A DNA stretch of 62,942 nt, filler included, from Hausera hauseri (taxonomy: Eukaryota), in NCBI GenBank assembly GCA_046269625.1. It is 13 parts of 13 records of this genome, joined end to end, with 100 filler letters (N's around TTAATTAATTAA, not from the genome) between each part and the next. Parts side by side here need not be neighbours in the genome. Positions count along the whole stretch, not along the records: positions 21,160 to 25,262 come from JBJURY010760651.1; 12 more parts are not named here. The stretch is one strand, 5' to 3'. The position numbers and the translations under genes were made by a program. Below are positions 1 through 62,828 of this stretch, piece after piece (the stretch's first letter is position 1; the number at the start of each line of letters is the position of its first letter). The notes beneath the pieces are model-generated. The model was not told where the DNA came from, did not search any database, and saw only the letters and a program-made list of their open reading frames with translations.

Positions 1-129
1 TAACTTAAACTCTTAGGGTACAAGCAGACTATTCGAGAACGAATAGTCCTAACCTGCTTATAGAAGTATTAATTTCATGTGAAAATATTGTTATAGTGGG
101 AGACGGTAAGGACCACCCCAACTGTAACA
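1..129 (+). repeat. 3' part of the 5' LTR of a Gypsy-like gag/env element
   Basis: Ends in ...TGTAACA immediately before a PBS. 71-129 (aatttcatgtgaaaatattgttatagtgggagacggtaaggaccaccccaactgtaaca) aligns with the end of the LTR at about 23550-23614 (aatttcaagtgcaaatattgttatattgtgggagatgaataggggccacccccatatatataaca). Confidence 0.8.
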
Positions 130-131
130 TT

Positions 132-148
132 TGGCGACCCTAGCAAGA
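132..148 (+). promoter_or_regulatory. Primer-binding site, tRNA-Arg-like (TGGCGACCCTAGCAAGA)
   Basis: TGG-initiated motif 2 nt after the LTR end. It resembles the TGGCGACC... PBS complementary to the 3' end of tRNA-Arg used by mdg1/412-type Gypsy elements. Confidence 0.75.
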
Positions 149-512
149 CAGTTTGTACCTCGCTAGACATTACTTTCGAGAGTCAATTAACGACATACAG
201 GCGAATAGCGCCATATACATCAAATAATTGTTGAATAATACGAATAAGAGTGTAAACTTGGGATCACAAGTTGTTAGAAGGGAATTAAGTAAAGATTAAT
301 CCTAGAGTAAACATTGAGAGGTTTAACTCGTGTCAAAACTTATTAGTAAACGGTAAAGAGAAACTTAAAGGGAAACACGGAATAAACTCTATATTAAAGA
401 CAAGGTAATAGACAAACATTGTTTATCCGACACTGAACTAATCAAGCAAGTAATTACCTCCGTTAAAGAATTCAAAGTTCCTCCTAGAATTCATAAAGTA
501 TATAAACCGAAG

Positions 513-1565
513 ATGGCAGCAGATAACCCAGCTATAGCACAGAAACTTGATATTTATACGTTCGATTCCCTGAACCTACCGGCATATGACGGTGACCCGG
601 ATGAGTTAAATGACTTTTTAAGAACTTATAAATTGCACGCAGAAGGTGCCAGTCTTGCGCCCGAAGTTATGATTAAACGACTGTCATTATACTTGAAACG
701 TCTGGCTGCAGAAGCCTATAGTGAACTTACCAATGACGAGAAGAAATCATGGTCCTCCGTAGTAGGAGCCCTGAACCGTAAACTGTTGCCGACGGTGACG
801 CCACAGCAAACGCTTATGGCTTTCCAAAACAAAACACAACAGAAGGATGAATCGGTCACCCAATTTGCAATCGCACTAAAGAAGCTTGCTAATAGTTACG
901 TGAGTACACTAAGGATAGCTAATGCGGTAAAGACTAATACAGATGCGGAACGCGAAGCGGCAGAAAAAGCTAGCCCGCCAGATTTAGATGTCACGATGAC
1001 AACTCAATTAACAAACGGTATATGGTCCAGAGACTTAGTTAAGCAACTAATTTTAGCTCGACCAGACAATTTTGAGACTGCATTACAGTTAGCTCAGAAC
1101 TTAGAAATGGCACTAGATAGATACGCTAGACAGGTTGATAGATATAATAGAAGTAATGACCGTGATAACCGGGATAGAAACCGAAACAATAGAAGATTCA
1201 ACAGTAATAATAAGAGTCGAGGCTGTGAAAATAGAGCCCAAGTGCCATTAATCGTAACACACGATATGATAATAGGAGCTTTAATGATAATAGGAGCACA
1301 TATAGTTCTTACAACAAAACAGTTTATATGCCGGATAGGAATCAAGGTAATGACCGAAGCAATAAGAATCGATATATAGTTAATCGAAGTTTCGAAAATA
1401 GAAATAACGGAATCGATAAACAAGCTCAACCAACTCAAAACAAAATAACAGGCAAACCCAAATCACCAGTGAATGAAGACGGACGACAAAGGATCGGCCG
1501 AGACGGGAATTTAATTTCTTATTAATGCGGTAAGGAAGGACATATAGCTAGATCGTGCCCTAATC
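513..1565 (+). pseudogene. gag: Ty3/Gypsy-type Gag (capsid plus degenerate CCHC knuckle), frameshifted
   Basis: Capsid motifs YDGDPDELNDFLRTY, LSLYLKRLAAEAY and QQKDESVTQFAIALKKLA. R/N-rich nucleocapsid region. After a frameshift near 1220-1330, SY*CGKEGHIARSCP (about 1517-1561) is a damaged CX2CX4HX4C knuckle. Confidence 0.85.
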
Positions 1566-4500
1566 CACGAAGCGTATTATTCTCAGAGACCAGTAAAACT
1601 AGCACAATAAAGGATAATTTGGAAGGAATCTATGGAAAACGAGGTGATAAAAACATGATTATCGAGATGCAGGACTTACAAAGATATATAAGAAATATGG
1701 GCGAATCTAATAATCCACCAGTAATCAAGGCCAGGAAGGCGTATGAAGAAAAGTTGCAGTTAATGGAAATTTATCATGGGTTAAGAGAACCAAAAACGGA
1801 GTGCAAAAATGCTATAGCACCCAGGAATACTAATATGCCCAGGAAGAGAAACCTAAATCAAGTCGCGGCAGAAGAAAAGCCGATAACGTCTTCAAGTGTA
1901 GACTTGGACGCGGATACCGAGGTCGCATCTCGAAATAAGGACAAAACAACAGATGAGGTTGAGAGCAAATTCATTGGCCCACTAATACTCAAAATAATCA
2001 AAAATAGAGGTAGAAGCCCTTCGCTTAGGAGAAGGTCACGAACTCGTTCACGATCTCCTATTAAAAAGGATTTAGAAAAGGAGGAAGACTTCATCATCAC
2101 TTTAAGAGATGAAACGGAGTTAAATACTCCTGTTGTAATCCAAGGCGTTTCTGAAACAGCAAATATTTCGAATACCGATGAAATTAATGAAATATATCCA
2201 CTACCACTTAGTGAAGAGAAATCAGAAGAAGAAAAGTCTATTAAGTTTGGGAAGATTAGAAAATCTTGGAAAAATACAAACGAACTAACTGAAATAAGAG
2301 ACACGCTGAATGATCCCGGAAGGTTACATGAGAGTCTGCAAAAACTCCAGCAGATGAGCAAACAGTTGGATATCTCCGGAAAAGAACAACAATTCATAGA
2401 AAAGCTATATAGAAAGCTTAAAACCTGCCTTCCGAAAGAGGAAGAAAACACACCTCGCGAACTCCAAGAGACGCCGCAAGACTTGATAGGAAGTTGGAAA
2501 AATAAATTGGAACTGTGGACAAGGAGTGGGATCGATTTTACGAAGATATGGTTGAACAAAAAAGAGCCGTTTCTCGATCAGGTAAATCAAGCGCAAGGAC
2601 TATTAAATGCACTAAAGGATAACCCAAAACTGAAACGCGTGAGGCGTAACTTAGAAGGATTGATACACGAGATCGAAGATGCGATCATTTCTTATCTTCA
2701 TAATAAGCCAGTATACAAACTGACAAATGCCGACCTAGAGATATTGGGCATAGACCCTATCAATATTCCCTCTTTGATAGCAATATGCAGTCTGATAAAG
2801 CCTAGTCCTCGATAATACCCGGATTTAAAAATACACATCGAAAGAGAAAACGAAATACGAGCTAAAATCAACGACATAAAGATCGGTGTAGTTCACCCTG
2901 AAAACGTAGAAGCACAGAGGATAATACGTGCTTGTCTTCTCAAATTATATGAGTATAAAGAAGAATTCAACCACATGAAGCATATCATAGAATTTGTACG
3001 ATGATCAGATCACGAACTAAAAGAAGTTCTTGGGACATTAGACGAAATAATCTACGCCAAACCGGCAATATCTAAACAATTAAAGAGGTGGATAGACTTG
3101 TTACCTTCCATAGCATAGATAATAAATGAAAGGCTAAGAGAATTCGCTATTGTCGAAACTATAACGAGACACCAATAGGAAGGAATGTTACTGGATATCG
3201 GTACGATGAAATACGAAACGAAATTGCGAATTAAATTCGAATCATTCCGAGAATTTGAACTTATGAGCAAGGATCAGGATCAAACAACACTAACAGAGAT
3301 ATATAGTATTATAGAAGAGAAGGAATTCTACAGAAAAAGAAACAAGCAAAGTGATCTTCGGCGAAGTTTGGCAAACATCCGTTGGGAAAGGATATAAAAC
3401 CTAATGCAGAAACCACTGAAAGAAATCTCAGCACAGGAAATAGAAACATTAGAAGTATGTAATGATCACCGGATTGCTCTGTCACAAACGATACAATATT
3501 TGCAGAATTCAGCAGAATGGACACCAGGTTTCGACCTACATTGCCACACCGAACTAAAGGAAATTAGAAAGAATCCTCAATTGGAGTGCGATGAAGCCAA
3601 GTTCATAGGCAGATTAATAGACACAATAGATCCGGACGCCGAAGTATTAAATCAAATGAACAAATTAATCCTACTATTAATACAAATGGCAGAAATTGAC
3701 GAAGTAGTAGCTGGACGACTAATAAATCGAATACGTCTGGTAAAAGAAACCCAGTTACGCTCCAAGAAGAGACAGCGCGAGCTAAACGAATTATTGAGAG
3801 AAGCAGAAGTTTATAAGAACAAGTATTCTTTTACGGAATCTGAAATTAATGACAAAATGGAATTTATGCAAAGATGGTAAAGAGACAGAATCGCGGAAGT
3901 AACTAGCTATCAAGAGAAAGCCTTGATACAACCAGACGAAATGTGCCGGTTAATAAAAATGATACAACAAGCTTGCGGAAATGGAGATGGATTTAGGATA
4001 TCCATAATGAATACATTGCAACCACAGATAAGAGAACTACGCGAAAGAGTCCAGGTTGGCCACGCGGCAGTAATGAACTACGCGTTACCGGACACGGATA
4101 ATGATGCCGAGTAGGATGAATACCTCCAAGGTTTAAACGAGCAAAGTCCAAGAAATCCAATACAAATTTATGAGTCAACTTAGGGTACACAGAAGACGAA
4201 ATTCAATGTGCAAATGCTACTTGGTCCCACGCTAGCTGAAAAGGAACTGAGTAGTGTACTGAAAATAAACAAGTGAAGATAGATTAAGAAATTTGATTCT
4301 GACCTTGACCAAGCTATCCAATGGAAACACCGCATACAGCGCTGTACCCAAGCTCCTAAAAAGAGAATACGCCAAATTGTTGAAAAACAAACCAGAAACA
4401 GAAATTAAAGTGAAACTATCATCCGAATGGATGAGCGACGAGGAATTTGAGTGCACTACCTATACCGCCGTTGGGGATATAAAACAGAGGATAATGGATA

Positions 4501-5300
4501 AGGATGGTAGGAAAGGAGTTAATTACCGACTCTATTTCAGGAGCAGGATATTAGATAAGCTAGAATCCTTGCCAGACGTAGGGATTATACCTCTCGAATA
4601 AAATCGAATAATAGCAATAATCGTCGGTGAGCAAACTAAGGACAAAGCCATGAGAAAGGCACATAAAGAGCATTGTGTCGGAAGAATCATGGGTATTCAT
4701 GATGCCGCAATGTATTTCGAATACTTACAGACTGATGATGACAAACCGCAGTAGGATAGGAACTTAGTCCCTCTAAGCGAAACTTCCCCACCGATCAAAG
4801 CAAAACGACTGGTCCGAAGACCAAGAAAAATCAAAGAAATTAACTATAATGCAGACCTAATTAGGGAATTGAGACAACTATCGGTACCAAACCCGAGTTC
4901 AGATAACAAAGAACTAATTGAGCTAATAAAAGACCTAATTAGGATAGTTAATTATACTGGATTCCAAGGAGACATATTATCCGAGAAAGAAAGATTAATA
5001 CATAATATAGCTCGGACAATGAAGATTTCTCGATTCAGATTATCTAAAAGCACCCTCTCTGACGAAACAGTAATTGATAGAATTATGATAGACAATACGA
5101 TGGAAGAATTAAGGACAGTCTTGATATATTCAGCAGTAAGAACTAACCCACTCCAGGAAAACGAATTCGACAAGATAATCGGGTTAGCTAAAAAAGCTGC
5201 AAGAAAGGTACCTAAAGAAATAAAGTGAACTAAATTATTCGAAAAAGACAAAATTACAAAAGGGGCCAATAGTTAGAGGACATAATACGAAATATTTCCC
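1566..5300 (+). pseudogene. Long uncharacterised continuation of the Gag frame (RS-rich patch, helical/coiled-coil), broken by isolated stops
   Basis: ORFs at 1619, 3185, 3404 and 3923 share the frame of the zinc knuckle and are separated only by single stop codons. ORFs at 4293 and 4869 share the next frame. RGRSPSLRRRSRTRSRSP lies near 2005-2060. No protease, RT, RNase H or integrase motifs were seen. Confidence 0.65.
4401..4630 (+). pseudogene. Ubiquitin-like (beta-grasp) domain within the retroelement polyprotein
   Basis: EIKVKL...TAVGDIKQRIMDKDGRKGVNYRLYFRSRILDKLESLPDVGI...*NRIIAIIVG aligns by eye to ubiquitin QIFVKT...[41 protein letters not shown]...STLHLVL. Confidence 0.65.
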
Positions 5301-5319
5301 CGAACAAAGGAAACGAATC

Positions 5320-6172
5320 CAATTGGTTAATCAACTTGCTGACGATAATGATGCTAGTAAAGCAGATAGGAGCACTCACTATATACGACTGCGAAAAATT
5401 CAAGGTGGGTCAGAAATATTCCTTGATGGACTTAGAAACATGTAAAGATGCGAGACCTCATAAGCTCGAGACAGCAGAAAAAATACTATATCAACAGCGT
5501 GAATTAATCGCAATGGATGCGATGGAGTGAATGGTGCGGAGATCCCGCAGAGTATTTCATTGTGGTAATATGCACGGTTATTCTTCAATAATCAAACTAA
5601 CCACATCATTAATCCCAATGAACTTGGATATACAACATTGTTTAGGAGCCCGGATAACCGGTAAAATGGTTTGGGTCGGCATGGGGTTAGAAACCCAAGA
5701 AGGAAGTGGCAGTAGGAAAATTAAATATGCACACCGGTTATTGTGTCGGAGAAGAATATGACACTGGAACGGGAAAGGAAGGATGGATAGTAGTAGTAAA
5801 TTTTTACGAAACCGAGTTAAGATCCCTAAAAGCAATGTTTTATAGTGTTACCAAAGTATTCACCAAAAATCAAAAATGTCACATTCAAGATGGTGCTTAT
5901 ACGTTCCGAAATTCAGTTGTTGTATGGAGCCCACCCTCAAGGCAAGACGTAATAGAACATCTCACACCAAAGATATTGATATTGGATACACATGGGTTAA
6001 AGTTTATTAGAAAGGATATGTTAATATGCTGCGATGTAGTTATGTATGATACCAACTACAAAGCGTTTTTCGTAGGAGAAACAGAAATTGACATGACAAC
6101 GTACTATTTGAATACACAAGATGTGCGGATCGAGGCTTACCTCAAAATTCGAGACGATTATTTTTATTACAA
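5320..6172 (+). pseudogene. env: Env-like glycoprotein of the chuvirus (Jingchuvirales) G type, N-terminal part, truncated by an insertion
   Basis: Hydrophobic signal WLINLLTIMMLVKQIGA followed by IYDC...YSLMDLETC...ME*MVRRSRRVFHCGNMHGYSS (TGA at a Cys position), then GYCVGEEY...WIVVV, KCHIQDG..VVW and CCDVVMYDTNYKAFFV. This Cys/motif pattern matches chuvirus-like glycoproteins. Contains a frameshift and a stop. Confidence 0.72.
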
Positions 6173-7606: not shown

Positions 7607-7980
7607 TGTTGTGCCCAACGAGATTGTGCTTCGTTGTTTATTTCTTTTCACTGTAAATACAATTTTTACTGTTGCTTGTTTTACATTTGCCGACGAATTG
7701 TTGCATTTTGGTGTTCTATCTCGTCGTGTCGGAATATTTCATCGAGACCACAACAATTTGGAACGTGGATTCTTGTTTGAGATTGGCCACTCAATGTTTC
7801 GACAAATTAACGATAATCGATAATTGGCGGTTCAAAGACAGGTCGACCGGTACGTCAATAAAAGTTTTGATCGAATATTCATCGTTGTTCTACCAAAATA
7901 AAATTATCCATCGAATACCTGGCCTATCATAGTTATACTCTTCCTCAGTATAAAAGCAATGCTTGGATTAAGGACGATGC
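7607..7980 (+). repeat. Gypsy family B LTR (right end uncertain)
   Basis: Starts TGTTGTGCC immediately after the PPT, the same start as at 45137. The 3' boundary and PBS were not resolved. Confidence 0.6.
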
Positions 7981-7990
7981 CTTCTTCTCA

Positions 7991-9460
7991 ATGACGGAAA
8001 TAATTAAAATTACGAGTTTACAACAATGGTGTCAGAGAATTTCCTACAAATTTGTCAGAACCAACATGCTTAACAGAAGAGCTTTTAGTGATATCGTTTT
8101 GGATCATGGGAATGGAATATCAACAACCAAAGAAATTACCAGAAATGACGAATTTATAAAATTTGGTCAGATGCTGAAAGTCAATATCATCATCAAAGGA
8201 GACGCACCTACCAGTAATATAACAGCCACTGTTTTGAAACGAGTGCCTTGGCAACCAAGAATATTCGCAAATGACTTACACAATTTCGTTCACTGCGGAG
8301 ATAGTTGGGGCGACAAACTGATTTTAAATACGGACAGAGGAACAATTTTATTGGAAGAAAATACCGCACCATTACTCATAATCGAAAAGTCATCAGAAAT
8401 TAAATAAATCGAAATAGTCGAAAGTTTAGGGGTCATGATTTGTTGATGTGAAAAAGGTCGCGACTCGAAAATCGCAATCATCCAGATTGCTGATTTAAAG
8501 AAATCGGAAAATTTGCCACTGGTTAAATCTGACATTAAAAAATTGGTTTTGGATAAAAGCAGAGGCTGCCATATGTTTGCCGTCAGTAAACCACACATTC
8601 AGCCAATGAGACTCGTTGTGGCCGTGAACAGACGATTCCGAATTTATGTGTTTAAATATGCTGCTTGCAGCAGTTCACTCTCGTCCTGGAACCAATTTAT
8701 GAATAGTGCTATCACGGGATCATTTCAATTCGTTAGCGAATTGCCAACATTCGAGGTGGCCCATGTGGTAACAATTCTCGAAATAGCAGTGACAGACGAG
8801 AACCGAGTGGTACACATCTGCATTAAACACAGAAACCAGTTTGACATGATCAATGAAAAAACTGGAGATACGATTCATCTGTACCGAACTGATTCGCCAA
8901 AATCAAACATGACTGCTGTCGTTGATCTCTGTTCGGAAGAAGAACCAGAATTGTTACTTTGCTACAATAGAACCTGCCATTTTCAGAAACTTTCAAAAGA
9001 CTCAATCACCCTCGAACAGAACAGCAACACTGAATTTGACTTCACGTGGAATTTCGAACCAAAAATATCGTTTTAGCATTGCCGTATAATTTTGCATTTA
9101 CACATAACGCCATTGAAATCAGATTGGTTGTTAATGGCAGTTTGGTCCATACAATGTCGGTACCCAATTGTCGTCTTATTACTTCAAAGAATGACTTATT
9201 TTTTGTACGACGGCTGACAATCTTTGCAAAGAATTGATTGAAAGACAAAAGTCTACGAATATATCTCTTGATCGGCTTTACAAAATGACAAGTCCGCCAC
9301 CGTCTCTTGAAATGCCGGAAGCTATCCATTCTCCAACTTGTCGAAACTCTTTACTAATTCAAGGGCAACATATTTACAAAATATCACTTTCATCACTGTC
9401 TGGTTGCAATATTCAATCATCGCCGAACAAACAGAGATGTACAGACCAACTCTTTTAGCT
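7991..9460 (+). pseudogene. GARNL3: Intronless, decayed GARNL3-like fragment (end of Rap-GAP region plus CNH domain)
   Basis: RRAFSD, EFIKFGQMLKVNIIIKGDAPTS, PWQP, CGDSWG, KSRGCHMFAV, CIKHRNQFDMINEKTGD, EEEPELLLCYNRTCHFQ and AIEIRLVVNGSLVHT match GARNL3 motifs. In-frame stops at 8405 and about 8445, frameshifts near 9065 and 9215, and no introns over about 1.4 kb. Confidence 0.8.
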
Positions 9461-9619
9461 TCCATGTTTTCGGAAATAATGCCAGATAATTCATTGTGCT
9501 CTTCATCCCAACAAGTAACAATTCGTGATTATGCAATCAACACGACTACTGCGGAGATAATTTGTGATTTAGTATCGAAAACCGTATCAGGTTATGTATC
9601 TGCATTCGGTAAAAAATGA

Positions 9620-11085
9620 CCGCCACATTTGTCGAATATTGACTCCTGAACTTGTAAACAAATTCGAAAAGCTAAGAGAATGTTTAAAAACTGTGGAAAT
9701 ATTAGCTTTTCCCAAGCACGATGCACATCTGATCCTCACTACAGACGCCTCCACCACCGCTGTGGGCGCCGTACTTCATCAAATCGATAAAGGTGAGAAC
9801 CAACCTTTGGAATTTTTCTTACGCAAGTTAACACCTCCCGAAACTAGATACTCCACCTTCGACCGAGAACTACTGGCGATAGTTCTTGCTTTAAAACATT
9901 TCTCACATTTACCAACTGCTCGGCGTTTCACCATACAGACCGATCACAAACCTTTAATCAACATTATGACGATGAAACATCCGTCATCTAGGCAGGAACG
10001 TCAGATCTCTTACTTGTCGACGTTTAATTTCGAGATCAAACATATTAATGGTGTAAATAACTTAGACATCTATTTCCTTTCAAGATCCGTTAGCTCCATC
10101 AATTTTAAACCTATATTCACAGAAGATCAGCTGCAAGAAAATCAACCACCTTTAGACATGCTTAAATCTTTCCGATTTTACAACATCATTGACGGCGTAG
10201 CTTTTGACACTTCCAAACCAGGTCATTCAGTAATAATTCTCGCACCACCTTTACAACGGCAAGCGTTTAACAGCGTACATTCACTACATCACCCTGGTGC
10301 TAAGACAACTTTTCGCCTAATTCACCAGCAGGTAATATGGCGGACAATGCGTTCCAATGTCCAAGCATGGGTTAAGGAGTGCGTGGCTTGCCAGAAATTT
10401 AAAATCACCGAACATCTAAAGCCACAACTATATCACTTTCCTTGCACATCACGTTTCGAGTCCGTACATATAGATATCGTCGGCTCTCTTCCTCTTGACA
10501 ACGGTCATCAATTTATTTTAACCATGATGGATCGCGCCTCACGTTGGCCAGAAGCTGTTCCTCTACGAAGCACTAACACGGACACAATAGCCGACGTTTT
10601 TATCCGCACTTGGATCATCAGGTTTAAATCTCCTAGATTTATTATTTCGGACCAAGGCCCCCAATTCGAGTCCAATCTAATCAAATCACTCGTTAATAGA
10701 TTGGGAATCCGTCATATACACACTACGCCTTATCATCCCCAATCGAACGGTCTTATTGAGAGATTCCACAGAACCCTGAAAACGTCGCTAAAATTCTCGC
10801 TAAATCCAACAGTAGTTGGACTGTTCTTCTTCCTCTGATTCTGATTGGTTGGCGGAACACGCCATCCACTTCCACAGGATGCTCACGTACCGAAGCTTTA
10901 TTTGGAGCACCTGTTCGTTCATTGTTTGAATTAACCGTGCTGAATAATACGCCTACAGACGAAACGATCAGAGCAGTGCAGGACCATTTCGTCGCGGTCA
11001 ATAAAGATTCGTTCTGTAGAATACTACACAACAATAAAATGTATTTACCCGACAATTTGTATTCCGCAAAGTTTGTTTGGCTACG
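9620..11085 (+). pseudogene. pol: Gypsy family B RNase H plus integrase
   Basis: LTTDASTTAVGAVL, YSTFDRELLA and TDHKPL (RNase H). HSLHHPG...CVACQ (HHCC). HIDIVG, ISDQGPQF and YHPQSNGLIERFHRTLK (DDE). Frameshift near 10800. Confidence 0.93.
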
Positions 11086-11185
11086 NNNNNNNNNNNNNNN
11101 NNNNNNNNNNNNNNNNNNNNNNNNNNNNNTTAATTAATTAANNNNNNNNNNNNNNNNNNNNNNNNNNNNNNNNNNNNNNNNNNNN

Positions 11186-11395
11186 ACGTATAATTTTCTG
11201 AATACGATATAAGTCGGGTTTCTCTGACAGTACCTGCAGTTCCTATTCGTATAATTTACCACGTATCTTCTCATTGTCTCCTCTACTAAAATGTACTTGA
11301 CGGGTAATTGTTTTGTGTTGATTGTTGAAATTCGAAACATCTCATCGTTCCAATTCTGATTGAAACTTTTTATAAATGGCGTTGTGCTCAGCCAT
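11186..11395 (-). pseudogene. Polinton-type integrase C-terminal fragment
   Basis: FIKSFNQNWNDEMFRISTINTKQLPVKY, homologous to 51745-51945 of the Polinton integrase in contig 11. Confidence 0.7.
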
Positions 11396-14300
11396 TAGAA
11401 ATAGGGTATAGAAATAGGATGTGTGGCGGAAATATTGATAAAAGTAGGAGTAGACAAAAATGCAGAGATCGAGGCAGGGATCGATTTGGTAGGTGACGAT
11501 GTAGGAGCAGAAACGGTAGTAGTGGGATCATGCGTGGTAGACTGAGGAATAAAAATTGGGATAGAGGTGGGTACAGGTGTGAGGAATGAGGTTGATGTCT
11601 CGTGTACGTAAAAGGTTGGTTTAGATTTGTGATATGCACAACAACTTCTTTCCCTTCTTTGAGGATAATAGCGATGTGTGAATGCAGCTGTACCGATTTA
11701 TATATTCCTAAGTACTATGGTTGGAAACCGCACTGTGACTGGTTTTTTAGCCATACAAACTTTGCCGAGTATAAGGCTTCGGGTATGTAGGATTTGTTAT
11801 TGTGAAAAGTCTGCAAAACGAATCTTTGCTGATTGTAACGAAATGATCTTGTGCTGCTCGTATTCTTTCATCCGTAGGAATCTCTTCAAGAACGTTTAGT
11901 TCAAACAGTGACCGTACAGGGGTTCCGAATAAAGCTTCCGTTGGTGAACATCCCGTGGACGTGGACGCAGTGTTCCGCCAGTCCTGCAGGATGAACGGTA
12001 GAAGTTTAGTCCAATTGGTGTTTGAATATGCAAGGATTTAAAGTGCTGTTTTCAAGGTTCGGTGGAAACGTTCGAGGAGGCAATTTGATTGCGGGTTGAT
12101 ATGGTGTTGTATGAATGTGACTTATACCCAATCGGTTGACTACAGACTTGAACAGATTTGACTCGAATTTTGGACCTTGGCGTGAGATGATATAACGAGG
12201 AGATTTGAACCTACTAATCTACGTTAGGATGAAAGTATCGGCTATTGTGTCAATGTTTGTACTACGCAGTGGAATGGCTTCCGGCCATCGTAAGGAACGG
12301 TCCATCATGATCAGAATAAATTGATGGCCGTTGCCCATTAAAAGACCAACGATGTCAATATGTACTGTTTCAAAACGTGAAGTACAAGGGAAATGGTATA
12401 ATGGCGGTTTTAAATGTTTTATGGTTTATACTTCTGACAAGCCACGCACTCTTTAACCCATGCTTGTATATCGGAGCACATCTACGGCCAAACTACTTGG
12501 TATTGAAGTAAGCGAAAAGTTGCCTTGGCACCAGGATGATGTAATGAATGTATACTATCAAATGCTTGTTTGTGTAAAGATGGGGCAAAAATTATTTTAG
12601 AATGTCCTGGTTTGGAAGTGCCTAAAGCCACGCCGTCGACGATGTGGTGTGACTTGAATGATTTGAGAATATCTTGAAATGGTTGATTTTCTTGGAGTTT
12701 TATCTATGTAAAGATTGGCGAAAAATTGATTGAACCGACTGATCTAGATAGGAAATCGGAAACTAGATTGTCAACGCCGTCGATGTGTTTAATATCAAAG
12801 TTAAGTGTGGACAAATACGAAATTTGCCGTTCTTGTCGAGTTGAAGGATGCTTCATTGCCATTATATTAATCAACGGTTTGTGATCACTCTGTATAACAA
12901 AATGATGAGCTGTAAGTAAGTGAGAAAAGTGTCTTAAGGCAAGAACTATTGCCAGCAGTTCCCAATGGACAGTTGAATATCTAGTTTCTGATGGCGTTAG
13001 TTTTCGGGAAAAGAATTTTAGAGGCTGATTTTCACCTTTATACAATGTTTGATGCATCTGTGGTTAAAATTAACTAGGAGTCAGGCTTACGAAATGCTAG
13101 TATTTCAACAGTCTTTAGTCCTTCTCATATTCTATCGAACTTATTCACTAGTTGTGGTGTCCACACGATTTTTTGGTGTTTTTTCATCCGCTTAAATGTG
13201 CAAAATTCGCCATGAGTTCCGAACAATATGGAATATATTTTTGGACGAAATGCAGAGTAGCAAATAAACTGTGCATTTCTGTTGTTGTCTTAGGTAGTTG
13301 GACATATTTAAGAGTCTCGATTTGATCAGGCTGAAGTGAATGGCCGTTTTAATAGACAATATTTCCGAGGAAATTAACGAGTTTTTGAAGGAAGTTACGT
13401 TTCGCAAAATTGATCTGTAGATTGAAGTGGTTAAGTTGTTTGAAGATAGATCGTAGATGTACTTCGTGTTGTTTAACAAAAGAAGAGGCAACCAAGATGT
13501 CAATATATGGATGCGCAAAAGTGAAATCTGAAAGGAATGAATCGATGTGTCGCTGAAAAGTCTACGCGGCATTCTGGAGACCGAAAAGCATATACAAGTA
13601 CTCATAAAGACCAAAAGGTGTGGAAACTGCAGTTTTCTCGATGTCTTCCGGTGCGACAGGAATTTGGTGGTAAGCTTTGGCTAAATCAGCTGTTGAATAA
13701 ACTGAAGTAGTATTAAGTCAATGTAATGTGTCTTGGATTAATGGTAGTAAATATGCATCCATTATGGTTAAAGTATTAAGCTTGCGGTAATCGCCGCATG
13801 GTCGGAAGGATCCATCTTTTTTGGACAACGTGGAGAAGCGAAAACCACGGGGATTTAGATCTACGGACAATACCTGATTTTTCGAGTTTAAAAAATTTCG
13901 TTTCTACTGCCTGCCTACGACGCGATGACAATGGACGGACATTTTGTCGAATTGGTCTTTGGTGTTGTGTAATTATATGGTGGTAAGTGCCGTTTACAGG
14001 GGACAAGAAGTTTTCATGAATTGTTGTAAGCTTACGGGTAGTTGCTGGAATATTGGAATTGATGTTGAACCAAGGTTGCTAACAGTACTTTGTAAATGTT
14101 GGTTAATTGTTGATGAGGAATAGAGTGGAATTTGTTGTAGGATGGTCGTGTCTGAGATCTTATTTGAGTAAGTATTGTTGTTCAATGATTTTACTGAAGA
14201 TATAAGATCGTGAGTGTCGACACTGAGCTGTGACTGACTATCGACATTGTCCTTTGACAGCTTACGTGGTAAAACTTGATAGTGAAGAGAAGTAGGATGT

Positions 14301-15900
14301 TATGTTGACTGTTTTATGATTGTTTGCTTACTTACCGTTGGTTGTGCTGTCGTCGAGGTGCTGCCTATTTCTGTACTACAGTCTTTAGGTGTATTTGATT
14401 TCCGTCATCGTTGGTTACAATAAACCAGCAAGTTGTAGTGTGACAGGAAATCGGAGCCAAGTATTGCCGTCTGGATGTTAGAGACTGTAAACGTCCAATG
14501 AAATGCTGAGAAAAATTTTGAGAGACTGAAAGATAGTTTGCAAGTTCCGGCAATATGAAGGGGTATACCGGAGGCGGTGTGTAACGGTTTTGTTTTAAGT
14601 GAAGAATGCTGAACCGTAAAAAAGTGGTAGTAATGAAATCGCAGCACCGGTATCGATGAAAAGTCTATGTATTAAATGTTACAGTGGAGATAGCAGCTTT
14701 TGGTGTAAAGACTACAAATGAATTGTGTCGGCAAGAAGTAGGTAAGTTGCCTTTGCCAGATTCTGCCATGAATACTGGAGGCGAAATCAGTTTTTTGGAT
14801 TGGTGAATTGGGATGGTTAATGTTAGAGAAACTGGAATGTCTATCAGTGGTGCAGTTACGGTTACTTTTATAGTTACAGCCTGGAATACAATTCCGAGCA
14901 TTAAATCCAAATTTTTCATGATAGATGCAAATTATGTTATCTGATCGTACATGCCAGAAATAATATCTACAGCCTAAACAGTATTTTTTGCTTTGTTATT
15001 AAATTTGTTATGATATTAGCATATAAATGACCGCGTTGGTGACGGTGTTCGATTTCTTGAAACAAAACGTGCTAGATGAATGAGGAAGCATTCCGTCGAT
15101 GTGAGGAAAGGTCATTCAGCTTATCATTGATGTTATTGATTGTATGTTGTAATGCCGCATTTTCGGAGCATAAGTGGTTCAATTGCGATTCGATAGAATT
15201 ATTTCGTTGACTGTCGTTGGTCGTGATTGCAGCTGATATGATGGGTTGTGATTGTATTTGTAAAACTTCGTGTGCTTTATCGGCAAATTTAGCTAGTTTA
15301 TCTAAAGCTGTAGAATCCTCAACAACAGTAAGTAAAGCCCTAATTTAAATTGGTAAAGCATTAAGAAAATATCGACGGAGTAGATCCGGATTGTGTTCCT
15401 TGGTGACACCCAGGGTACGTAAGTGAGCCAATAAGGTGCGTAAGAAATCACTAGGTTTTTGTGTTCCCATTGCGTTTTCATTAAAGAATCGTTGTATTAT
15501 CGAGTCAATTGGTGGTTCTATCAGTTTTAATACAGCATTGAACAAATGCGTATAAAAGTCAGGGTGTTGAAAGATGTCCAGTAAGTTATGGATTGGGGTC
15601 TTCATAGAGTTTGGCAGAAGGTAGAGTAGATTATGGGCTTTGGTTAACGAGTCGGTAGTGCCGTTGGATTGTAGCCAAAGTTGATGGAAGTGGAGCCAAG
15701 CCTTACTAGAGTTTTCATTGTCTGTAAGATATTCAGAGCATTGTGAAGGTGCAATTGTAGGGGATTTGTGAGAAAATCTAGTATCGGTTGAAGGAGTTAG
15801 ATGGTTCGATTTTGGATAGTAGACAATGAATTTGGGTTTTGTAATCACCTTATTTAAGATGTCACTGGTTGGTTAAAAAATCACACCGCCGCGGATTCTA
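11396..15900 (-). mobile_element. Gypsy family B element, near full length and heavily decayed (gag-PR-RT-RH-INT)
   Basis: Gag 15345-15848 is homologous to 40508-41188. Protease-like AILGSDFL. RT IVRRSKSPWFSLLHVVQK. RNase H YSTVHWELLA..SDHKPL. Integrase remnants. Many frameshifts. Confidence 0.88.
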
Positions 15901-17521: not shown

Positions 17522-20356
17522 GGTAGATCTCCCCCCAAAATTTATATTTATTAACTCTACCACTTATAACTGAGCATGTGTTATCAGTATAGGATGAAAC
17601 TTATGGTGAGACATATATTCACAGAAATTATGCAAATTAAGTATCCAAAATGGCCGCCGCAATGCCTAATTTGCATACAAATTTTCATACATCCCTGTGA
17701 CCACAAAAATGATCCAATTCTTTTGATATTTGGCATAAGAGTTGTATACATGTAGCTGCAGGGCTGGTAGTAAAATAAATGGGATACTGAGCAAAATGAA
17801 TTTTTAACAATTATTTATATTTCTGATTGTGCTTAAACTTGACAAATTTGACCTCATTAAATATGCATACAGGCCATAACTCCTATACCAAGCAAGATAT
17901 CAAGTTTATTTTACTACCAGCTCTGTATACTTATATACACAATATGCATGCCAAATTTCAAACAAATTGGTCAACTAGTTTGGGAGAAACCATGCATGAG
18001 AATCAGGCACCATTATAAAAAACTAACTTTTAAGAAAACTAACAAAAACTGTTATTCCTTACCTCATAAGTGTCTTATGATAGTCTAATCCATTTTAATG
18101 GCCACCAGTAGTATACATGTCACCTTCTGCAGCTTCTGCATTGTCAGTAAAGCCTTTTTTAATGGCACGGAGCTTTTTTCTGCGTTGTTTTGCTGTGGTA
18201 GAAGACTTGAGGGTTGATGCAGATATCCGCTTGACATTTTTGTTAGTGCATAATCTACCCGTGTAGAACCCACCAAATCCTAACTTGCCTAAGATTTTAA
18301 GAATGGAGACTGCTCCATCATTAAAATATGCCACTGCATTGTAGCAAGCTTCTTCTATTGTCTCCTTTTCCACATAAATTTCCTTGGAGCATCGGTCCCA
18401 TATAAGTTTGTTTAGACATTCATTTGCGTTTTGTGTTTTTCCATGCAAACATTTTCTTAATAGCTGTTCATCTGCAAGACTTTCAAAGACAGGTTTTATG
18501 AATTCAGTGACAGCTTCAGGGAGACCATTTTTATGTTTGTAGTGCTCAGGATCTTTCTTGTAATTACACCAAGTGTTTTCTCCATCTGGGCACTTCTGGT
18601 GCATTGGTTTGGCATCTGACGAACCGACATGTGGCAGAATGGCTTGGACATCAGCAGTCATTTGGTCAAGGTTGCCTGCATTCCGACGAATGGCTAAGCC
18701 ATAATAGTTTTGCAGTGTGTTGATTTTTTTGTCTGTTAGTCTACCAGCACCTCCCAAGCCCTTTCCATCTTTTAACTTGATGCCCTTATTCTCACTTTTC
18801 ATTTTACGAAGCCTTGTGCCGCACCTCTTTTGGACATGCCCAACACATTCCAACTTTTCTACTTCTTTTGTTCCATATGGTCTGGCATCTAAGACATTCT
18901 TGAATGAAGCGGAGTCCCCATCACCCAGATATTTAGTATATCTTAGTTTTCTGTTACTCTCGGACCGAGTAAAAATGTGTACGGCCCCAGCTGCTTCCAT
19001 GGCTCCAGAACTCCCCACATGGTTTATTTTGCAGTTGTGTGTCACCCGCCATCTGTCATACTCTTCAGTTCCTTCTTTAGGTTCCCAATGCCGGCACGCC
19101 TTGCAAATATTTGTAAGAATTTCAGCATCTAGACATTTGCCAGTTTCCACAGATATTGCTGTAACTACACCATGGTGACTTGCATGTCCACGCTTCTGCC
19201 AAGTGCCATCTACTGATACAGAACAATCAGCAATGTCATCAGGTGCCCCAGAAGTCAGCAGTTTAGATCGTGCGTCATTTGCAGCTGAAATCATACTTTC
19301 ATTTGCAACTTCCATTGTTGCTTGATGAAGTTTCTGAAATGCACGTTTATAGCTTTTGAAGGCCATTGCTGGAGGGCTGTTAAGATACAGTGAAAAGTTT
19401 TTAAGTGCTCTATGGCCTCTTCCAATCGAGCGGATAAAAGCAACCATCCTCATGTTTACCTCTTTGTGTCTGTGATTAATATCACTGTCTGTTGATTCCC
19501 CTGAAGTATTGAAATTCAGACTAAATTTGTTACAGTTAGTACAGACAAGGGTAATTACATGGCTAAACCCACAGCGCAAATTCTCTGACAGTTCACAACT
19601 CAGCGAAAAATGTTGACATTCTTCACATCGAATGTTGGAAGCTAGAAACTGAAAAAGAATCTGTGTATCCAAGAGGATAAATGCACTATCTTGATTTGAA
19701 GTGTTTTCACTGACACTGGGTATCTGGAGCTTTATTTTCTTGGCAGAAGAGCAGGTGGGCTCACTATCGACAACAGGTTCTTCAGCTGCTGACATATTTG
19801 ACATATGTTTGTTGACATGCTTATTGCCTCTAAATTTTCGTTTTACTGACCTGCTAGCTGATTTTGATGCATTTTTTTTATTTCCCATAATGATTTAGTT
19901 GGTTGGATACAGAGTACGGTGAAAAAGTAATTTAACTGGAGATTATACCAACAAATTCATCGAACGAATGTGTACAGTCAAGAAACACAAAGCGTTTGTT
20001 TACAAGTGACTGCCATCTTTCTTTTTTTAACAGAATGTCCGAGAATGACTTCCCTTGGCTGCATTCTTCTTACAATGTTTAGTTCACTTCCTATTATTAT
20101 TAATTCGCCTTTTTATCAGGATTCCTTGACATATTTATGAGTGAGGACCATGGTAACCACATGTAAACAGTCGGTTGCTATGCACTTTTAGGATGAGGGT
20201 GGGTCTACTACTGACCATGTTATTAACAAATCTGAGCTGATTTTGATATACTGAAAACTGATTTGGGTGCAGAAATGGTAATTCTTAATAATAAAGTAGT
20301 TATTGAAAATTCTCATTTTTGACAATTTTAGCCCATATGGTGGGGGGAGATCTACC
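17522..20356 (-). mobile_element. Complete Kolobok/Mutator-like DNA transposon (about 2.8 kb)
   Basis: 16-bp TIRs GGTAGATCTCCCCCCA (17522-17537) and TGGGGGGAGATCTACC (20341-20356). Subterminal inverted repeat gctggtagtaaaataaa / tttattttactaccagc at about 17763 and 17906. One intact transposase. Confidence 0.85.
18095..19888 (-). CDS. Kolobok/Mutator-like DDE transposase, 597 aa, intact
   Basis: SVDGTWQKRGH, NHVGSSGAME, YLGDGDS, KLECVGHVQKRCG and TQNANECLN, plus N-terminal CxxC zinc motifs. Confidence 0.9.
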   Translation of the reverse strand: MGNKKNASKSASRSVKRKFRGNKHVNKHMSNMSAAEEPVVDSEPTCSSAKKIKLQIPSVSENTSNQDSAFILLDTQILFQFLASNIRCEECQHFSLSCELSENLRCGFSHVITLVCTNCNKFSLNFNTSGESTDSDINHRHKEVNMRMVAFIRSIGRGHRALKNFSLYLNSPPAMAFKSYKRAFQKLHQATMEVANESMISAANDARSKLLTSGAPDDIADCSVSVDGTWQKRGHASHHGVVTAISVETGKCLDAEILTNICKACRHWEPKEGTEEYDRWRVTHNCKINHVGSSGAMEAAGAVHIFTRSESNRKLRYTKYLGDGDSASFKNVLDARPYGTKEVEKLECVGHVQKRCGTRLRKMKSENKGIKLKDGKGLGGAGRLTDKKINTLQNYYGLAIRRNAGNLDQMTADVQAILPHVGSSDAKPMHQKCPDGENTWCNYKKDPEHYKHKNGLPEAVTEFIKPVFESLADEQLLRKCLHGKTQNANECLNKLIWDRCSKEIYVEKETIEEACYNAVAYFNDGAVSILKILGKLGFGGFYTGRLCTNKNVKRISASTLKSSTTAKQRRKKLRAIKKGFTDNAEAAEGDMYTTGGH

Positions 20357-21159: not shown

Positions 21160-22175
21160 AAGAGAGCAATTGAATCATGGAAAGGATTTCAAGTTAGTAC
21201 AGCAAGAAGTGACGCAATGCCTCTATGGATACGTCTTAGTGGGGTATCAAATAGAGAGGATAATGAAGAAATTAGCCATACCGGAAACGTATATAGCCGC
21301 AGTAAGGGAAATAGAAACCCACCCAACTATTATGCGACAAGTAGGAATCAAGGTTGAAGAAAAAAGGAGTCATATACCACTGACCATGGAAGGCTATTTT
21401 AAGTTAATGGTAGAGGCCATGATCGGGGAAAACATAAAAATAAGCAGAGTGCAATCTGCAAATCAAAGATCCCAATATCTAAGACATATAAACGCTGGAC
21501 TAAAGTGGGAACATGAATGGATTCCCACCAACCCCGGACAAAACTTACGAAATTTCCCAAATTCTGAGCGACTCAGCACACGATACCGTAAACATTTTCG
21601 CCCATACTCTCCACCCAGGAATGTCGAAATCAAACCAGAATGGAATTACCAAATAATTATACAAGGATTGAAGATAGAAAAAGCAAGGAATAAAGAACCC
21701 ACAGATGAAAAACCCAGCACAAGTTATGGCACCACAGCAGATAATAATCTGTTTAAAATACCAGAAGTTCCTCGGAAATACGTAGAAGACAGTCATAGAA
21801 ACCCAGAGACCGAAACCGGAAAAACCACGAAAAGGAAAACCTCCTGTTTTGATTATTGATTTAAAAAGAAAAGTAAAGAAGGAGAAAAAGGACTAAAGGA
21901 AGGACCCAGATCGGAACGAAAAATCCAAGACCAAGACAACGAGCACTGGAACCTTCAAAACTAAGTAAACGGAAAGAACAAATTACTGAAATAAACGTCT
22001 TACGGAAAAGACATTGACTGAAGATGTTCACTATGCTACTACGGCAGATTACCCCAGGATACTAATAGCCACAGAGTATTACAGCAAACAAAAGATTAAA
22101 GAAGCAATGTTTTTTGTCAAACTAATGCCTGCCTGACAAGTTTATGAGAATACTTATGTCTGGGAAAATCCTAAG
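21160..22175 (+). pseudogene. Uncharacterised A-rich coding region of an LTR element 3' end
   Basis: 229-aa open frame plus interrupted continuation, with the same A-rich strand bias as contig 1. Lies upstream of the RING ORF, PPT and LTR. Confidence 0.5.
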
Positions 22176-22643
22176 ATGGAAAAATACGTTGCCCCGATAT
22201 TTCAGTTCAAAAGAAACGGTAACATCTTAGTCCCTGTGGATAAGTCAGTCAAGCTGTTGCTAAAGAAACAGTACCAAAAATACCGATCGACTGGTGAAGT
22301 TCCCCATTTAGATCGAGATACTATCATCGATTGGACCCTAATAGCTGTGGGATGCGACCCTAAGAAAAGCTCGATAAATCCAAAACAGAAAAGAATATAC
22401 GCTTATTTATATCAAGATGAAGAAGGGTTAATAATGGAGACTATTGAGATTTTGTTGGGAGTATATCTTGACGACGAAAATTGGGCGAAAGAGGAGAACG
22501 AATGTTTCGTATGTGAGGCAAATCTGAAGCAGGAGTATGTAGTGTTAAATAACCCCGATTGCCAACATAAGTACTGCAGAGACTGCCTAGAGAAGTGGAC
22601 ATTGGATAATGGGAAGACCACATGTCCAGTATGCCGGGCTTAA
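22176..22643 (+). CDS. C3HC4 RING-finger (E3 ligase-like) ORF inside an LTR retroelement
   Basis: CFVC-x13-CQHKYCRDCLEKW-x8-CPVCRA retains the full RING pattern, the conserved Trp and the linchpin Arg. It lies about 210 nt upstream of the PPT. Confidence 0.82.
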   Translation: MEKYVAPIFQFKRNGNILVPVDKSVKLLLKKQYQKYRSTGEVPHLDRDTIIDWTLIAVGCDPKKSSINPKQKRIYAYLYQDEEGLIMETIEILLGVYLDDENWAKEENECFVCEANLKQEYVVLNNPDCQHKYCRDCLEKWTLDNGKTTCPVCRA

Positions 22644-22866
22644 GCAGCCGATCTGAAGTATTACTCAAACGGTAGTTACACCAGAATCGTTCGAATAAAA
22701 CCTTACCACAGTTATAAATTGGAAACAAATCTCAGAGAGGACCAGCCTAGTACCAGTTCTGGATCCAGCTTAAGACAACGAATGGAATTGTTACGAAGTC
22801 CCCATCGCAGCGGCACCTCTCCTGATGCAATGGGCACACCCGAGGATGCCGTTCAGGGAGGAGAAA

Positions 22867-23614
22867 TGTTGTAATAACGGTATCATGCAATAAGCAAATG
22901 TAAATTGTAGATAATGAAAATGGTCAAATTGTATTCTAATATATAAAATTGGATAAATAGAAAATTGTAGAGATTTAGTTAGTTTAATTAATATTGGTGG
23001 CTTATAAATGTCAAAATTTCGGAGAAATTATTTAACGCTCGAGTGAAATATTAGGCAATAAAACAAATCAAACCATTGAAATTGAACAAGAAACGTAGGC
23101 GGAAGAAATCAGGTGAGCCGACAAAACTATATAAGGTTTCAGTTTCGTGGCAGAATTAGAATTATTTGGACCCAGTTAAATGTGCGAGATTACGTTGGAA
23201 AATTGAATTAGTTACTGTTCAGACTTTTTAGACGCAAATTAACTCGATCGTCGAAATTCATAGACTTTTATCGTGGACATCTGATCTATTGTGAAGTTAT
23301 TTGGGGAATTTTTGTGTTAATACAATTTGCTGTATTTTTTAGAAATTCCCCTATAGTTTTCCTTCGCTCCTTAAGGGTGATTAGACTACAATAAGGTTAA
23401 AATCAATACTTAAAATAAATATTTAAGAGAGAGACATTATTAAAGTTTATTGCAAAGGACCGCAAGCATTGACCAGAAAAGGACGTTATAAAATCGATAA
23501 GGTACATTCAGTCTATCCGATAACGGTAGACAGAACCTCACAGCCAATAAATTTCAAGTGCAAATATTGTTATATTGTGGGAGATGAATAGGGGCCACCC
23601 CCATATATATAACA
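22867..23614 (+). repeat. 3' LTR (about 750 bp) of the RING-carrying element, related to the LTR at 1-129
   Basis: PPT AGGGAGGAGAAA at 22855-22866, then TGTTGTA...TATAACA imperfect terminal IR. The 3' end is homologous to 71-129. Confidence 0.78.
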
Positions 23615-24599
23615 ATTGTAAATGCAATTGTAAATACAAATATTCTAATATATAAATAATTGTCGAATGCTGACGTTGATGAGAACCTCAAGAAGGCATA
23701 CCAATTCTTGAAGCTAATCAATGATAAATCTGATTTCGAATACGATGAGTCTAATGAAGAATACTTGATTCATATACATTTACCATATAATTGTTTTTTT
23801 TTCTATGGTGGACGAGCTATATCTGTTAAAGGAAATAATCTGCGGTTTTCTCAGAGTCCACGGTTGTCTATCACGGGTCTTACGACAAAGAGATCCAACG
23901 ACACCTTGCTCTACAGCTGTTATGGACTCAGGACTAGAAAAAAGGTAGGCAAATTTACTATATTTCTATTTTGTAACAATTTGTTAAATAACACCAACCA
24001 AAGCCGTTCAATCACTACACTCAAGTTTCCTCAGTGTAGATAATTCGTCTTACAAATTTGCCTGCCTACCCAATAAACTAAGTAATAATACACATTACGT
24101 GATGTATCATTCAGAAAGTATGATATACAAGGTTGTCGAAAAATTACCAGACGTATGTCCTATTTTAGTCATTACATCACTCTCTGACACTTATTTTCAT
24201 TACCCTAATGCCTGTGGTATACAATCTGGTACTATACCGTTTATTGAAAATATACCAAATGAACCATCGCAAAGAAAATTTACGATCCCGCGGTCAGAAA
24301 GATCAGTCAATACAATGCCGAGAGGTTGGGCGCACCCGTGTCCTATGTACCACATTATACACTGAATATAGCTGGAAACTTCATCTCCTTTACTGTCTTG
24401 CTTGAAAACAGACACATATGTATATATACTACATACATCATACTGCTTCTATCGCTCTTTATCTGGCGTGCTTCAACGAGAAATATTCTCGACTAATTTT
24501 CGTTTTAGTTTTAACGGATTTTTTTGCAGCAAACATACATTATCACTAACTACACTCGCTGCTCTTCGACAACTATAGCTACTGCATACTATCGTCTGC

Positions 24600-25262
24600 T
24601 AAGTGGATGTGATCCAAAAACATCTTCTAAGGACCAACAAGATTTTGCCGACATTACCACTATAAATGTACCGTTAAATTCACCTCTAACCCCGCCATCT
24701 ACTGTAAATCTACCTTGCGTAGAATACTTCTTCGACAAGCAGCACTCCAGCCGGACGTGGTTAGACTTTCATGCGGCTTGGTTGAAATCAAATAATATTG
24801 TCGACTCGATTCTTAAAGCAAACAGTTTGCATATACTCTTGCCTTCTAATATTAAGTCTCAACTTCCCAATTTATCGGAAATTTTCCAAACTAGTGACCC
24901 ATATAAAACACTTTTAACTATATTTTAAAAATCATCGAACCGTCCTTAGATAATATCATCCATAAATATTTTAACAACAACACCATAGGAACATTAAAAC
25001 CCTCAGAATTTCTACAAACCTCACTAACTCAATTGAGCACCCTTGGCGTTAATCAAGCAAATAACGCCGATTTACTACGCAAGTGTTTTCTACAGTCTTT
25101 ACCAAGAGACATACGTGCATTATTTACCATAGTAGAGGACACATCGTCACGACAAAAACAAGCACAACTGACTGACAAAGCCACGAGTTTTTGCATGCAC
25201 ATACAGCCCCATTCGCAGCCGCTACGTTACAGGCATCAAAAAATCAACAAGTTAGCGACATA
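24600..25262 (+). pseudogene. gag: Gypsy family B gag fragment
   Basis: CVEYFFD..SSRTWLDFH..WLKSN..DSILKANSL, LKPSEFL and ADLLRKCFLQSLP are homologous to the gag regions at 15345-15848 and about 40490-41188. Confidence 0.78.
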
Positions 25263-62790: not shown

Positions 62791-62828
62791 TTAATATCAA
62801 AGGTGGAGCAGTACTTGAATCACTGCCT

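What the first reader, a model, noticed from the sequence alone, without database searches (positions are those of the whole stretch)
21160..23614. RING E3-ligase ORF at the 3' end of a related LTR element: a retroelement ubiquitin toolkit?
Seen: an intact C3HC4 RING lies directly before a PPT and a 750-bp LTR whose last 60 nt are clearly homologous to the LTR end at 71-129. Inference: contigs 1 and 5 are the 5' and 3' parts of related members of one family, which would then encode Gag, UBL, env and RING. That resembles viral counter-defence ligases such as herpes ICP0 or baculovirus IE2/PE38 rather than a typical retrotransposon. The link rests on LTR similarity only; the two LTRs are not identical, so this is not the same copy.
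Basis: partly seen in the sequence, partly recalled or inferred. Interest (0 to 1): 0.82.

Follow-up and report, generated by a model that had tools for sequence, protein, structure and literature searches.

The report
Retrotransposon gene fusing dead-nuclease and RING
This is the broken tail end of a multi-copy retrovirus-like jumping gene whose last gene joins a ubiquitin-ligase-type RING finger to a likely inactive nuclease domain, and which may tag host proteins; RING cargo in such elements is already known from planarians, but this fusion appears undescribed.

Summary
The RING (22503-22634), purine tract and 748-bp LTR are real. The LTR matches contig 1's LTR end over all 125 available bases (77%; score 124 vs shuffles 62±4).

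The gene is not intact. 21160-22874 is the decayed 3' two-thirds of one long gene. Its only full-length relative among 92 hits (P0002, 870 aa, open) ends in the same purine-tract-encoded residues and carries a DnaQ/DEDDh-like domain lacking the checked catalytic acids ahead of the RING. One sequencing run, probably the source sample, covers this region about 100-fold deeper than the unique junction, so it is a multi-copy family gene, not a one-off capture.

Contig 1 (Gag, long helical region, weak ubiquitin-like match, gB-type env, no pol before env) resembles planarian Burro/GYPSM1. For Burro, ubiquitin/apoptosis tinkering is published and a RING-BIR module is reported. The gag/env-to-RING link remains inferred from LTR similarity only.

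Best reading: an element-encoded E3 ligase aimed by a nucleic-acid-binding pseudo-nuclease; activity untested. The fusion was not found in nine literature searches, though three primary Burro papers were not seen. New variant of a known kind.

The parts
21160..21856 (+). 5'-truncated piece of the long 3' gene: C-terminal half of a DnaQ/DEDDh-like pseudo-exonuclease domain (about 21160-21530), then a linker
   Evidence: tblastn to P0002 residues 297-592, E 1e-30; 41 of 123 identical in the exonuclease half; domain identity from P0002
21857..22010 (+). break zone: stop codon and frame change in a lysine/glutamate-rich linker
22008..22502 (+). conserved domain of unknown fold before the RING, broken by a stop at 22134-22136
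   Evidence: 70 of 152 identical to P0002; no Pfam, PDB or Atlas match; model not confident here
22503..22634 (+). C3HC4 RING finger, eight zinc ligands intact
   Evidence: 32 of 47 identical to P0002; model pLDDT 60-71 here
22635..22874 (+). C-terminal tail of the same gene (stop at 22641-22643 in this copy), running through the purine tract into the LTR
   Evidence: aligns to P0002 793-870; the last eight residues are identical
22855..22866 (+). polypurine tract
   Evidence: sequence
22867..23614 (+). 3' LTR, 748 bp, TGTT...AACA
   Evidence: LTR/flank junction held identically by a low-depth contig
1..129 (+). contig 1: end of a related 5' LTR (77% identical); not the same copy
132..149 (+). 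contig 1: primer-binding site, likely tRNA-Arg type
   Evidence: sequence; last 8 nt match the Arg_UCG_UCU class in the PMC13524379 supplement
513..1565 (+). contig 1: Gag with a CCHC knuckle, frameshifted
   Evidence: Retrotrans_gag E 0.0034, zf-CCHC E 0.0023; both below Pfam's cut-off
1566..4270 (+). contig 1: long, probably helical region of unknown function with 8 stops; no protease, RT, RNase H or integrase found
4398..4598 (+). contig 1: possible ubiquitin-like domain (weak)
   Evidence: Pfam ubiquitin E 0.034; PDB ubiquitins E 0.13-0.8; no Pfam match when read in the longer frame
5330..6170 (+). contig 1: N-terminal part of a gB-type (Monjiviricetes-like) env, broken, cut off by another repeat
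   Evidence: PF24664 E 1.3e-9; insertion boundary

Best explanation
The stretch is the decayed 3' end of a multi-copy LTR retrotransposon whose last gene (870 aa and open in a relative) fuses a likely inactive DnaQ/DEDDh nuclease domain to a RING finger, and likely works as an element-encoded E3 ubiquitin ligase aimed by nucleic-acid binding. SHOWN: RING, purine tract, LTR, breaks, many copies, and conservation of the gene's order and 3' end in a diverged relative. INFERRED: the gene is made from a separate, probably spliced RNA; the pseudo-nuclease grips RNA, probably the element's own or small-RNA complexes; the RING recruits a host E2 and ubiquitinates host silencing or sensing proteins bound there. 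ALSO INFERRED: the family is a Burro-like gag-(UBL)-env-pol element, of which contig 1 is the 5' part of a sister lineage.
For: P0002 is the only one of 92 hits that covers both the pre-RING domain and the RING (E 7e-45, 52%). It is open for 870 codons and ends in the same eight residues that the window encodes across the purine tract and LTR start. Identity peaks in the RING (68%) against 28-46% elsewhere. Summed contig depth is 683-3097 over 21160-22803 against 9.3 for the identical junction contig. The nuclease fold rests on PDB DnaQ E 1e-4 and PolC E 5e-4, PHROG exonuclease E 1e-4 and Atlas RNase_T 0.92, where ten of the ten best hits with a family share a family or clan. The ExoI Asp/Glu and ExoII Asp align to non-acidic residues. 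RNA binding by inactive exonuclease domains is known in Exu and Exd1 (10.1101/2025.08.03.668247, passages). The RING keeps the helix Trp, the C-P-x-C Pro and the following Arg (their E2-binding role is recalled, not from a call). Contig 1's layout matches Burro's Gag-Ubi/SUMO-env-pol order (PMC6431247 section 7). Both internal parts are 39% A on the sense strand.
Against: No activity, expression or substrate data. Only one relative is known, its DNA context was not seen, and no dN/dS could be computed. The depth comes from one run that is probably the source sample, and the tool warns that depth is no copy number. No sequence joins contig 1 to contig 5, and they share no protein similarity. 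The purine-tract bin is 4 to 19 times deeper than the internal bins. The UBL is weak. The Atlas shared-feature count (165) is just under its 170 guide. ExoIII was not covered by the alignment. P0002 begins with a hydrophobic 24-residue stretch that this model does not explain; it may be a gene-caller extension.
Confidence: 0.55

Rival explanations
1. The gene is a conserved accessory gene, but it serves the element's own life cycle (export, transport or packaging of its RNA, or ubiquitin-dependent budding) rather than counter-defence, like CERV of Cer1.
For: Same conservation evidence. CERV is an element-encoded protein needed for genomic RNA export (PMC10309623, title and passages). Egalitarian's exonuclease domain binds RNA localisation signals, including the I-factor's, without needing catalysis.
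Against: CERV has no RING domain in the passages read; export needs no E3. No direct data.
Confidence: 0.2
2. The RING acts on host cell-survival or signalling pathways, as reported for the RING-BIR module of Burro1, and the element persists partly by benefiting its host cell.
For: Precedent in a similar architecture (PMC13465017 passage citing Lee et al. 2026; primary paper not held).
Against: No BIR, BCL-2, MATH or ankyrin match in P0002 or contig 1. The partner domain here is nuclease-like.
Confidence: 0.1
3. Contig 1 and contig 5 belong to different families that share only an LTR type, so the RING gene does not sit in a Gag-UBL-env element. This concerns the link only and is compatible with the E3 mechanism.
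For: LTR ends are 23% diverged. The purine-tract bin is far deeper than the internal bins (12,802 vs 683-3097). No joining sequence was found.
Against: LTR homology covers all 125 available bases, far above chance. Base composition matches (3-mer correlation 0.86, though a LINE in the window gives 0.81). Adding the parts with a typical env and pol gives about 15 kb, close to P0002's 16,242-bp contig (inference).
Confidence: 0.3
4. The gene is a neutral passenger: a host gene fragment captured once and decaying.
For: This copy is decayed: three stops and a frame change; 17 of 19 tested differences from other copies change the amino acid.
Against: An open 870-aa relative at 33-68% identity keeps the domain order, all zinc ligands and the same LTR-proximal end. 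No cellular gene with this architecture appeared among 92 hits or 7295 candidates. Many copies exist.
Confidence: 0.05

Closest known systems
Burro / GYPSM1 giant Ty3/gypsy elements of planarians (PMC6431247 section 7 read in full; Jurka 2007, Grohme 2018 and Lee 2026 not seen)
   Same: Gag with CCHC, long extra region, Ubi/SUMO-like motif and a mononegavirus-like env placed between gag and pol. Ubiquitination/apoptosis tinkering is proposed there, and a RING-BIR module is reported for Burro1 (PMC13465017 passage).
   Different: Here the RING sits in a separate last gene before the purine tract, fused to a pseudo-nuclease, with no BIR. No MATH, BCL-2, BIR or ankyrin was detected. The element looks about half Burro's size (inference). 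Host and pol are unknown.
GAG-ENV-POL errantiviruses with HSV/gB-type env in Nematoda, Bryozoa and Platyhelminthes (PMC13524379, passages and supplement rows)
   Same: gB-type env before pol; PBS of an Arg class also listed in that data set. By eye (not computed), contig 1's env cysteine pattern looks closer to the planarian C1a rows than to the nematode rows.
   Different: The main text has no occurrence of RING, ubiquitin, exonuclease or DEDD. A 3' accessory gene was not part of its search.
DEDDy-exonuclease ORF3 of bdelloid Juno/Vesta LTR retrotransposons and Terminons (PMC5408684, abstract and passages)
   Same: A DnaQ-superfamily nuclease domain as the last gene of an LTR retrotransposon.
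   Different: Those are DEDDy with catalytic residues intact and no RING (0 occurrences). Here the best matches are DnaQ/RNase T type, the checked acids are lost, and a RING is fused.
Viral RING ligases ICP0, IE2, PE38, poxvirus p28
   Same: Mobile-element-encoded C3HC4 RING; p28 pairs a nucleic-acid-binding domain with a RING (recalled).
   Different: No homology beyond the RING. No fold match reached E 0.001 and these proteins rank among many unrelated RINGs.
Cellular pseudo-exonucleases Exd1, Exuperantia, Maelstrom
   Same: Nuclease fold reused for RNA binding (passages).
   Different: Host genes; no homology to them was tested or found.

Membership tests
LTR retrotransposon 3' end | polypurine tract directly before a TG...CA LTR | tested here: met
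LTR retrotransposon 3' end | multi-copy, with unique flank | tested here: met
   (one run; depth is a rough guide only)
LTR retrotransposon 3' end | paired 5' LTR and target-site duplication | not testable with these tools
   contig 5 begins inside the element
Ty3/gypsy (Metaviridae) | pol with PR-RT-RH-IN order and RT phylogeny | not testable with these tools
   no pol in either element piece
RING-HC (C3HC4) domain | eight zinc ligands with canonical spacing | tested here: met
   above the Pfam cut-off for PF00097 and PF13639
RING E3 ligase | E2-dependent ubiquitin transfer | not testable with these tools
   hallmark residues present by sequence (their role is recalled)
DnaQ/DEDD exonuclease | fold-level homology | tested here: met
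   (modest E-values, three libraries agree)
DnaQ/DEDD exonuclease | catalytic acidic residues | tested here: not met
   ExoI and ExoII acids replaced in P0002; ExoII also replaced in the window piece; ExoIII not aligned
Burro/GYPSM1 | Gag with CCHC knuckles at the N-terminus | tested here: met
   contig 1, weak Pfam matches; one knuckle seen, Burro has two or three
Burro/GYPSM1 | mononegavirus-like env between gag and pol | tested here: inconclusive
   env follows the gag side with no pol before it; pol after env not visible; frame fusion obscured by breaks
Burro/GYPSM1 | Ubi/SUMO-like motif before env | tested here: inconclusive
   E 0.034, E 0.13-0.8
Burro/GYPSM1 | MATH, BCL-2, BIR, ankyrin motifs | tested here: not met
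   none in contig 1 frames or P0002; decay lowers sensitivity
Burro/GYPSM1 | giant size (over 25 kb) and planarian host | not tested
   no whole element or host genome available
Bdelloid DEDDy ORF3 | DEDDy class with intact catalytic residues | tested here: not met
ICP0 / IE2 / PE38 viral ligases | homology outside the RING | tested here: inconclusive
   no match at E 0.001, but the model is low-confidence outside the RING; no sequence match either

The most novel reading that the evidence does not exclude
A clade of envelope-bearing animal retrotransposons encodes an RNA-targeted E3 ligase: a dead DEDDh domain that finds the element's RNA or small-RNA complexes, and a RING that destroys the host silencing proteins there. 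Together with its own ubiquitin-like domain, this would be a Vif/ICP0-style counter-defence system in a germline retroelement.
Probability: 0.2. Interest if true: 0.8.

Novelty: new variant of a known kind. Interest (0 to 1): 0.5.

Why it matters
Animal retrotransposons that actively suppress host silencing are poorly documented. A conserved pseudo-nuclease-RING fusion names a concrete, testable candidate: one domain to find RNA, one to tag proteins. It also suggests that Burro-like elements with env before pol carry more than one kind of RING cargo. The general idea of a retroelement ubiquitin toolkit is already published for Burro, only two sequences of this gene are in hand, and the link to env and UBL is inferred, so interest is moderate.

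Tried and rejected
- No host genome is held.
- LTR-end pattern in metagenome contigs: 0 matches.
- P0002/window alignment scans: 0 of 473 pattern hits confirmed in metagenomes, 0 of 187 in prokaryote genomes, 2 of 101 in viral contigs, both RING-only giant-virus genes.
- Env and Gag scans of viral contigs: 0 of 4 and 0 of 8. Purine-tract pattern: 4 viral loci, none related.
- Homolog searches: pre-RING part 0 of 7 candidates; Gag 0 of 762, limited to 158-504 aa so a fused polyprotein could not appear; P0002 found only itself among 7295. Atlas gave nothing for the pre-RING part.
- An early idea that the pre-RING domain is KilA-N or Bro-N (as in poxvirus p28) found no support in Pfam.
- Folds: P0002 alone pLDDT 31; two-row model pLDDT 38, usable only at the RING; fold searches returned generic RINGs.
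- The TRAF-like RING on contig 8 is not a close relative.
- No RNA holder listed.
- Papers not held: Grohme 2018, Lee 2026; Jurka 2007 was not sought. Their figures or supplements may already show a 3' gene in Burro.
- Earlier-findings look-ups by sequence and by genome were empty.
- No complex prediction was run.

Full report
SETTING. The window is 13 separate contigs joined by N linkers. Its content (gypsy, LINE, Mutator, a TRAF-like gene) points to an invertebrate animal. No host genome is held. The finding lies at the start of contig 5 (21160-25262); contig 1 is 1-6740.

OBSERVATION. The RING is real: all eight zinc ligands at 22503-22634, above Pfam's cut-off. A 12-nt purine tract (22855-22866) is followed by a 748-bp TGTT...AACA LTR. 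The LTR's end matches window 5-129 at 94 of 122 columns. The gene itself is broken: stops at 21857, 22134 and 22641 and a frame change near 21860-22010.

WHAT THE GENE IS. A search of 1.84 billion representatives gave 92 hits. One, P0002 (870 aa, ENA, contig 16,242 bp), matches the whole query at E 7e-45. The other 91 match the RING only, apart from three weak short matches. P0002 aligns to both window pieces in order (E 1e-30 and 2e-71) and ends in the same eight residues that the window encodes across the purine tract and LTR start. This suggests P0002 is also the last gene of an LTR element; its DNA was not seen. Identity is 33% in the nuclease half, 46% before the RING and 68% in the RING. 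P0002 residues 235-420 resemble DnaQ-family exonucleases in three libraries, but the ExoI Asp and Glu and the ExoII Asp are replaced, and ExoII is also replaced in the window piece. ExoIII was not aligned. The domain before the RING has no family match and could not be modelled.

IS IT A FAMILY GENE? One run holds the region. Of its contigs, 3435 were laid at 80% or better. Summed depth is 683-3097 across 21160-22803, against 9.3 for a contig that spans the LTR/flank junction with no difference. That is roughly a hundred-fold, but the run is probably the source sample and depth is only a rough guide. Of the 40 best-supported differences shown (685 not shown), 25 fall in the gene. I dropped 6 in the break zone; of the other 19, 17 change the amino acid, as expected if this copy has decayed on its own since insertion. 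This does not measure selection on the family. The open, diverged P0002 is the better argument for purifying selection.

THE LINK TO CONTIG 1. Contig 1 has a PBS at 132 (likely tRNA-Arg), Gag with a CCHC knuckle, about 900 residues of unknown region, a weak ubiquitin-like match (E 0.034; E 0.13-0.8) and a gB-type env (E 1.3e-9) cut off by another repeat near 6170. No pol lies before env. The two contigs share no protein similarity and no fetched sequence joins them. For the link: whole-end LTR homology, the same 39% A sense strand, and parts that would add up to about 15 kb, near P0002's contig length (inference). Against it: 23% LTR divergence, and a purine-tract bin 4 to 19 times deeper than the internal bins. 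I put the link at about 0.65-0.7.

MECHANISM. Most likely (0.55) the gene encodes an E3 ligase aimed by nucleic-acid binding. Shown: the domains, their order and their conservation. Inferred: separate spliced expression (as stated for rotifer ORF3s; PMC5408684 passage), RNA binding by the pseudo-nuclease (precedents Exu and Exd1; 10.1101/2025.08.03.668247 passages), E2 recruitment (hallmark Trp, Pro and Arg present; role recalled), and host silencing or sensing proteins as substrates. The last step is the least supported. Rivals are a life-cycle role like CERV (PMC10309623 passages), a cell-survival role like Burro1's RING-BIR module, separate families sharing an LTR, and neutral capture.

WHAT IS KNOWN. 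PMC6431247 section 7 (read in full) describes planarian Burro/GYPSM1: Gag, Smc-like region, MATH, Ubi/SUMO-like, BCL-2, BIR, ankyrin, env between gag and pol, and proposes meddling with ubiquitination and apoptosis. PMC13465017 (passage) reports that Burro1 carries a RING and BIR module protecting stem cells, citing Lee et al. 2026, which is not held. GAG-ENV-POL elements with gB-type env occur in nematodes, bryozoans and flatworms (PMC13524379 passages). DEDDy ORF3s with intact active sites occur in rotifer LTR elements. So the element works like a Burro-type cargo carrier, but membership is not established: MATH, BCL-2, BIR and ankyrin were not found, and pol, size and host are unknown. Nine literature searches (listings and abstract starts, with passages for the papers named) showed no 3' pseudo-DEDDh-RING fusion in an LTR element. 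Grohme 2018, Jurka 2007, Lee 2026 and their supplements were not seen and could contain it. Unchecked notes from this scan list a Burro-like element and RING or RING-like cargo in several unrelated retroelements, which lowers the surprise of RING cargo as such.

VERDICT. Real feature, misdescribed as intact, with an unnoticed pseudo-nuclease partner that is the more original part. New variant of a known kind; interest 0.5.

Noticed in passing
window 23615-23660: The DNA right after the LTR repeats pieces of the LTR's own 5' part (an exact 16-nt match to 22932-22947 and a 12-nt near match). This copy may sit in or against an older related LTR.
   Followed up: partly
window 22941-23351: The middle of the LTR has depth 26-52 while both LTR ends have 638 to 12,802: it seems to diverge much faster than its ends.
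   Followed up: no
window 6170-6740, 48310-49170, 62825-62942: Three related copies of a repeat rich in GTGCAC/ATCGAT words; the one in contig 1 cuts off the env. Two begin with an AGTAG-type end and one lies beside a B-family-polymerase-like fragment, suggesting a Polinton/Maverick terminal region (identity recalled).
   Followed up: partly
window 37159-38842: TRAF-like gene: RING, TRAF zinc finger and MATH domain. Not closely related to the element's RING.
   Followed up: partly
window 9573-10838, 11597-15872, 24515-25262, 40427-44966: Several decayed copies, 65-94% alike in pairwise matches, of a separate gypsy family in which no env was seen; one lies about 0.9 kb downstream of the RING element's LTR.
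   Followed up: partly
window 18095-19894 (-): Open 598-aa Mutator-like transposase, E 2e-69.
   Followed up: no
window 54704-58767: LINE with two long open frames (gag-like, then endonuclease-RT), apparently young; Jockey/I-like by recall.
   Followed up: no
window 7871-9350: CNH-domain-like coding pieces (E 7e-13) embedded between gypsy integrase fragments in contig 2, possibly a captured host cDNA.
   Followed up: no
P0002 residues 1-234: Hydrophobic first 24 residues and a region of about 180 aa with no family match upstream of the nuclease-like domain; unexplained.
   Followed up: no
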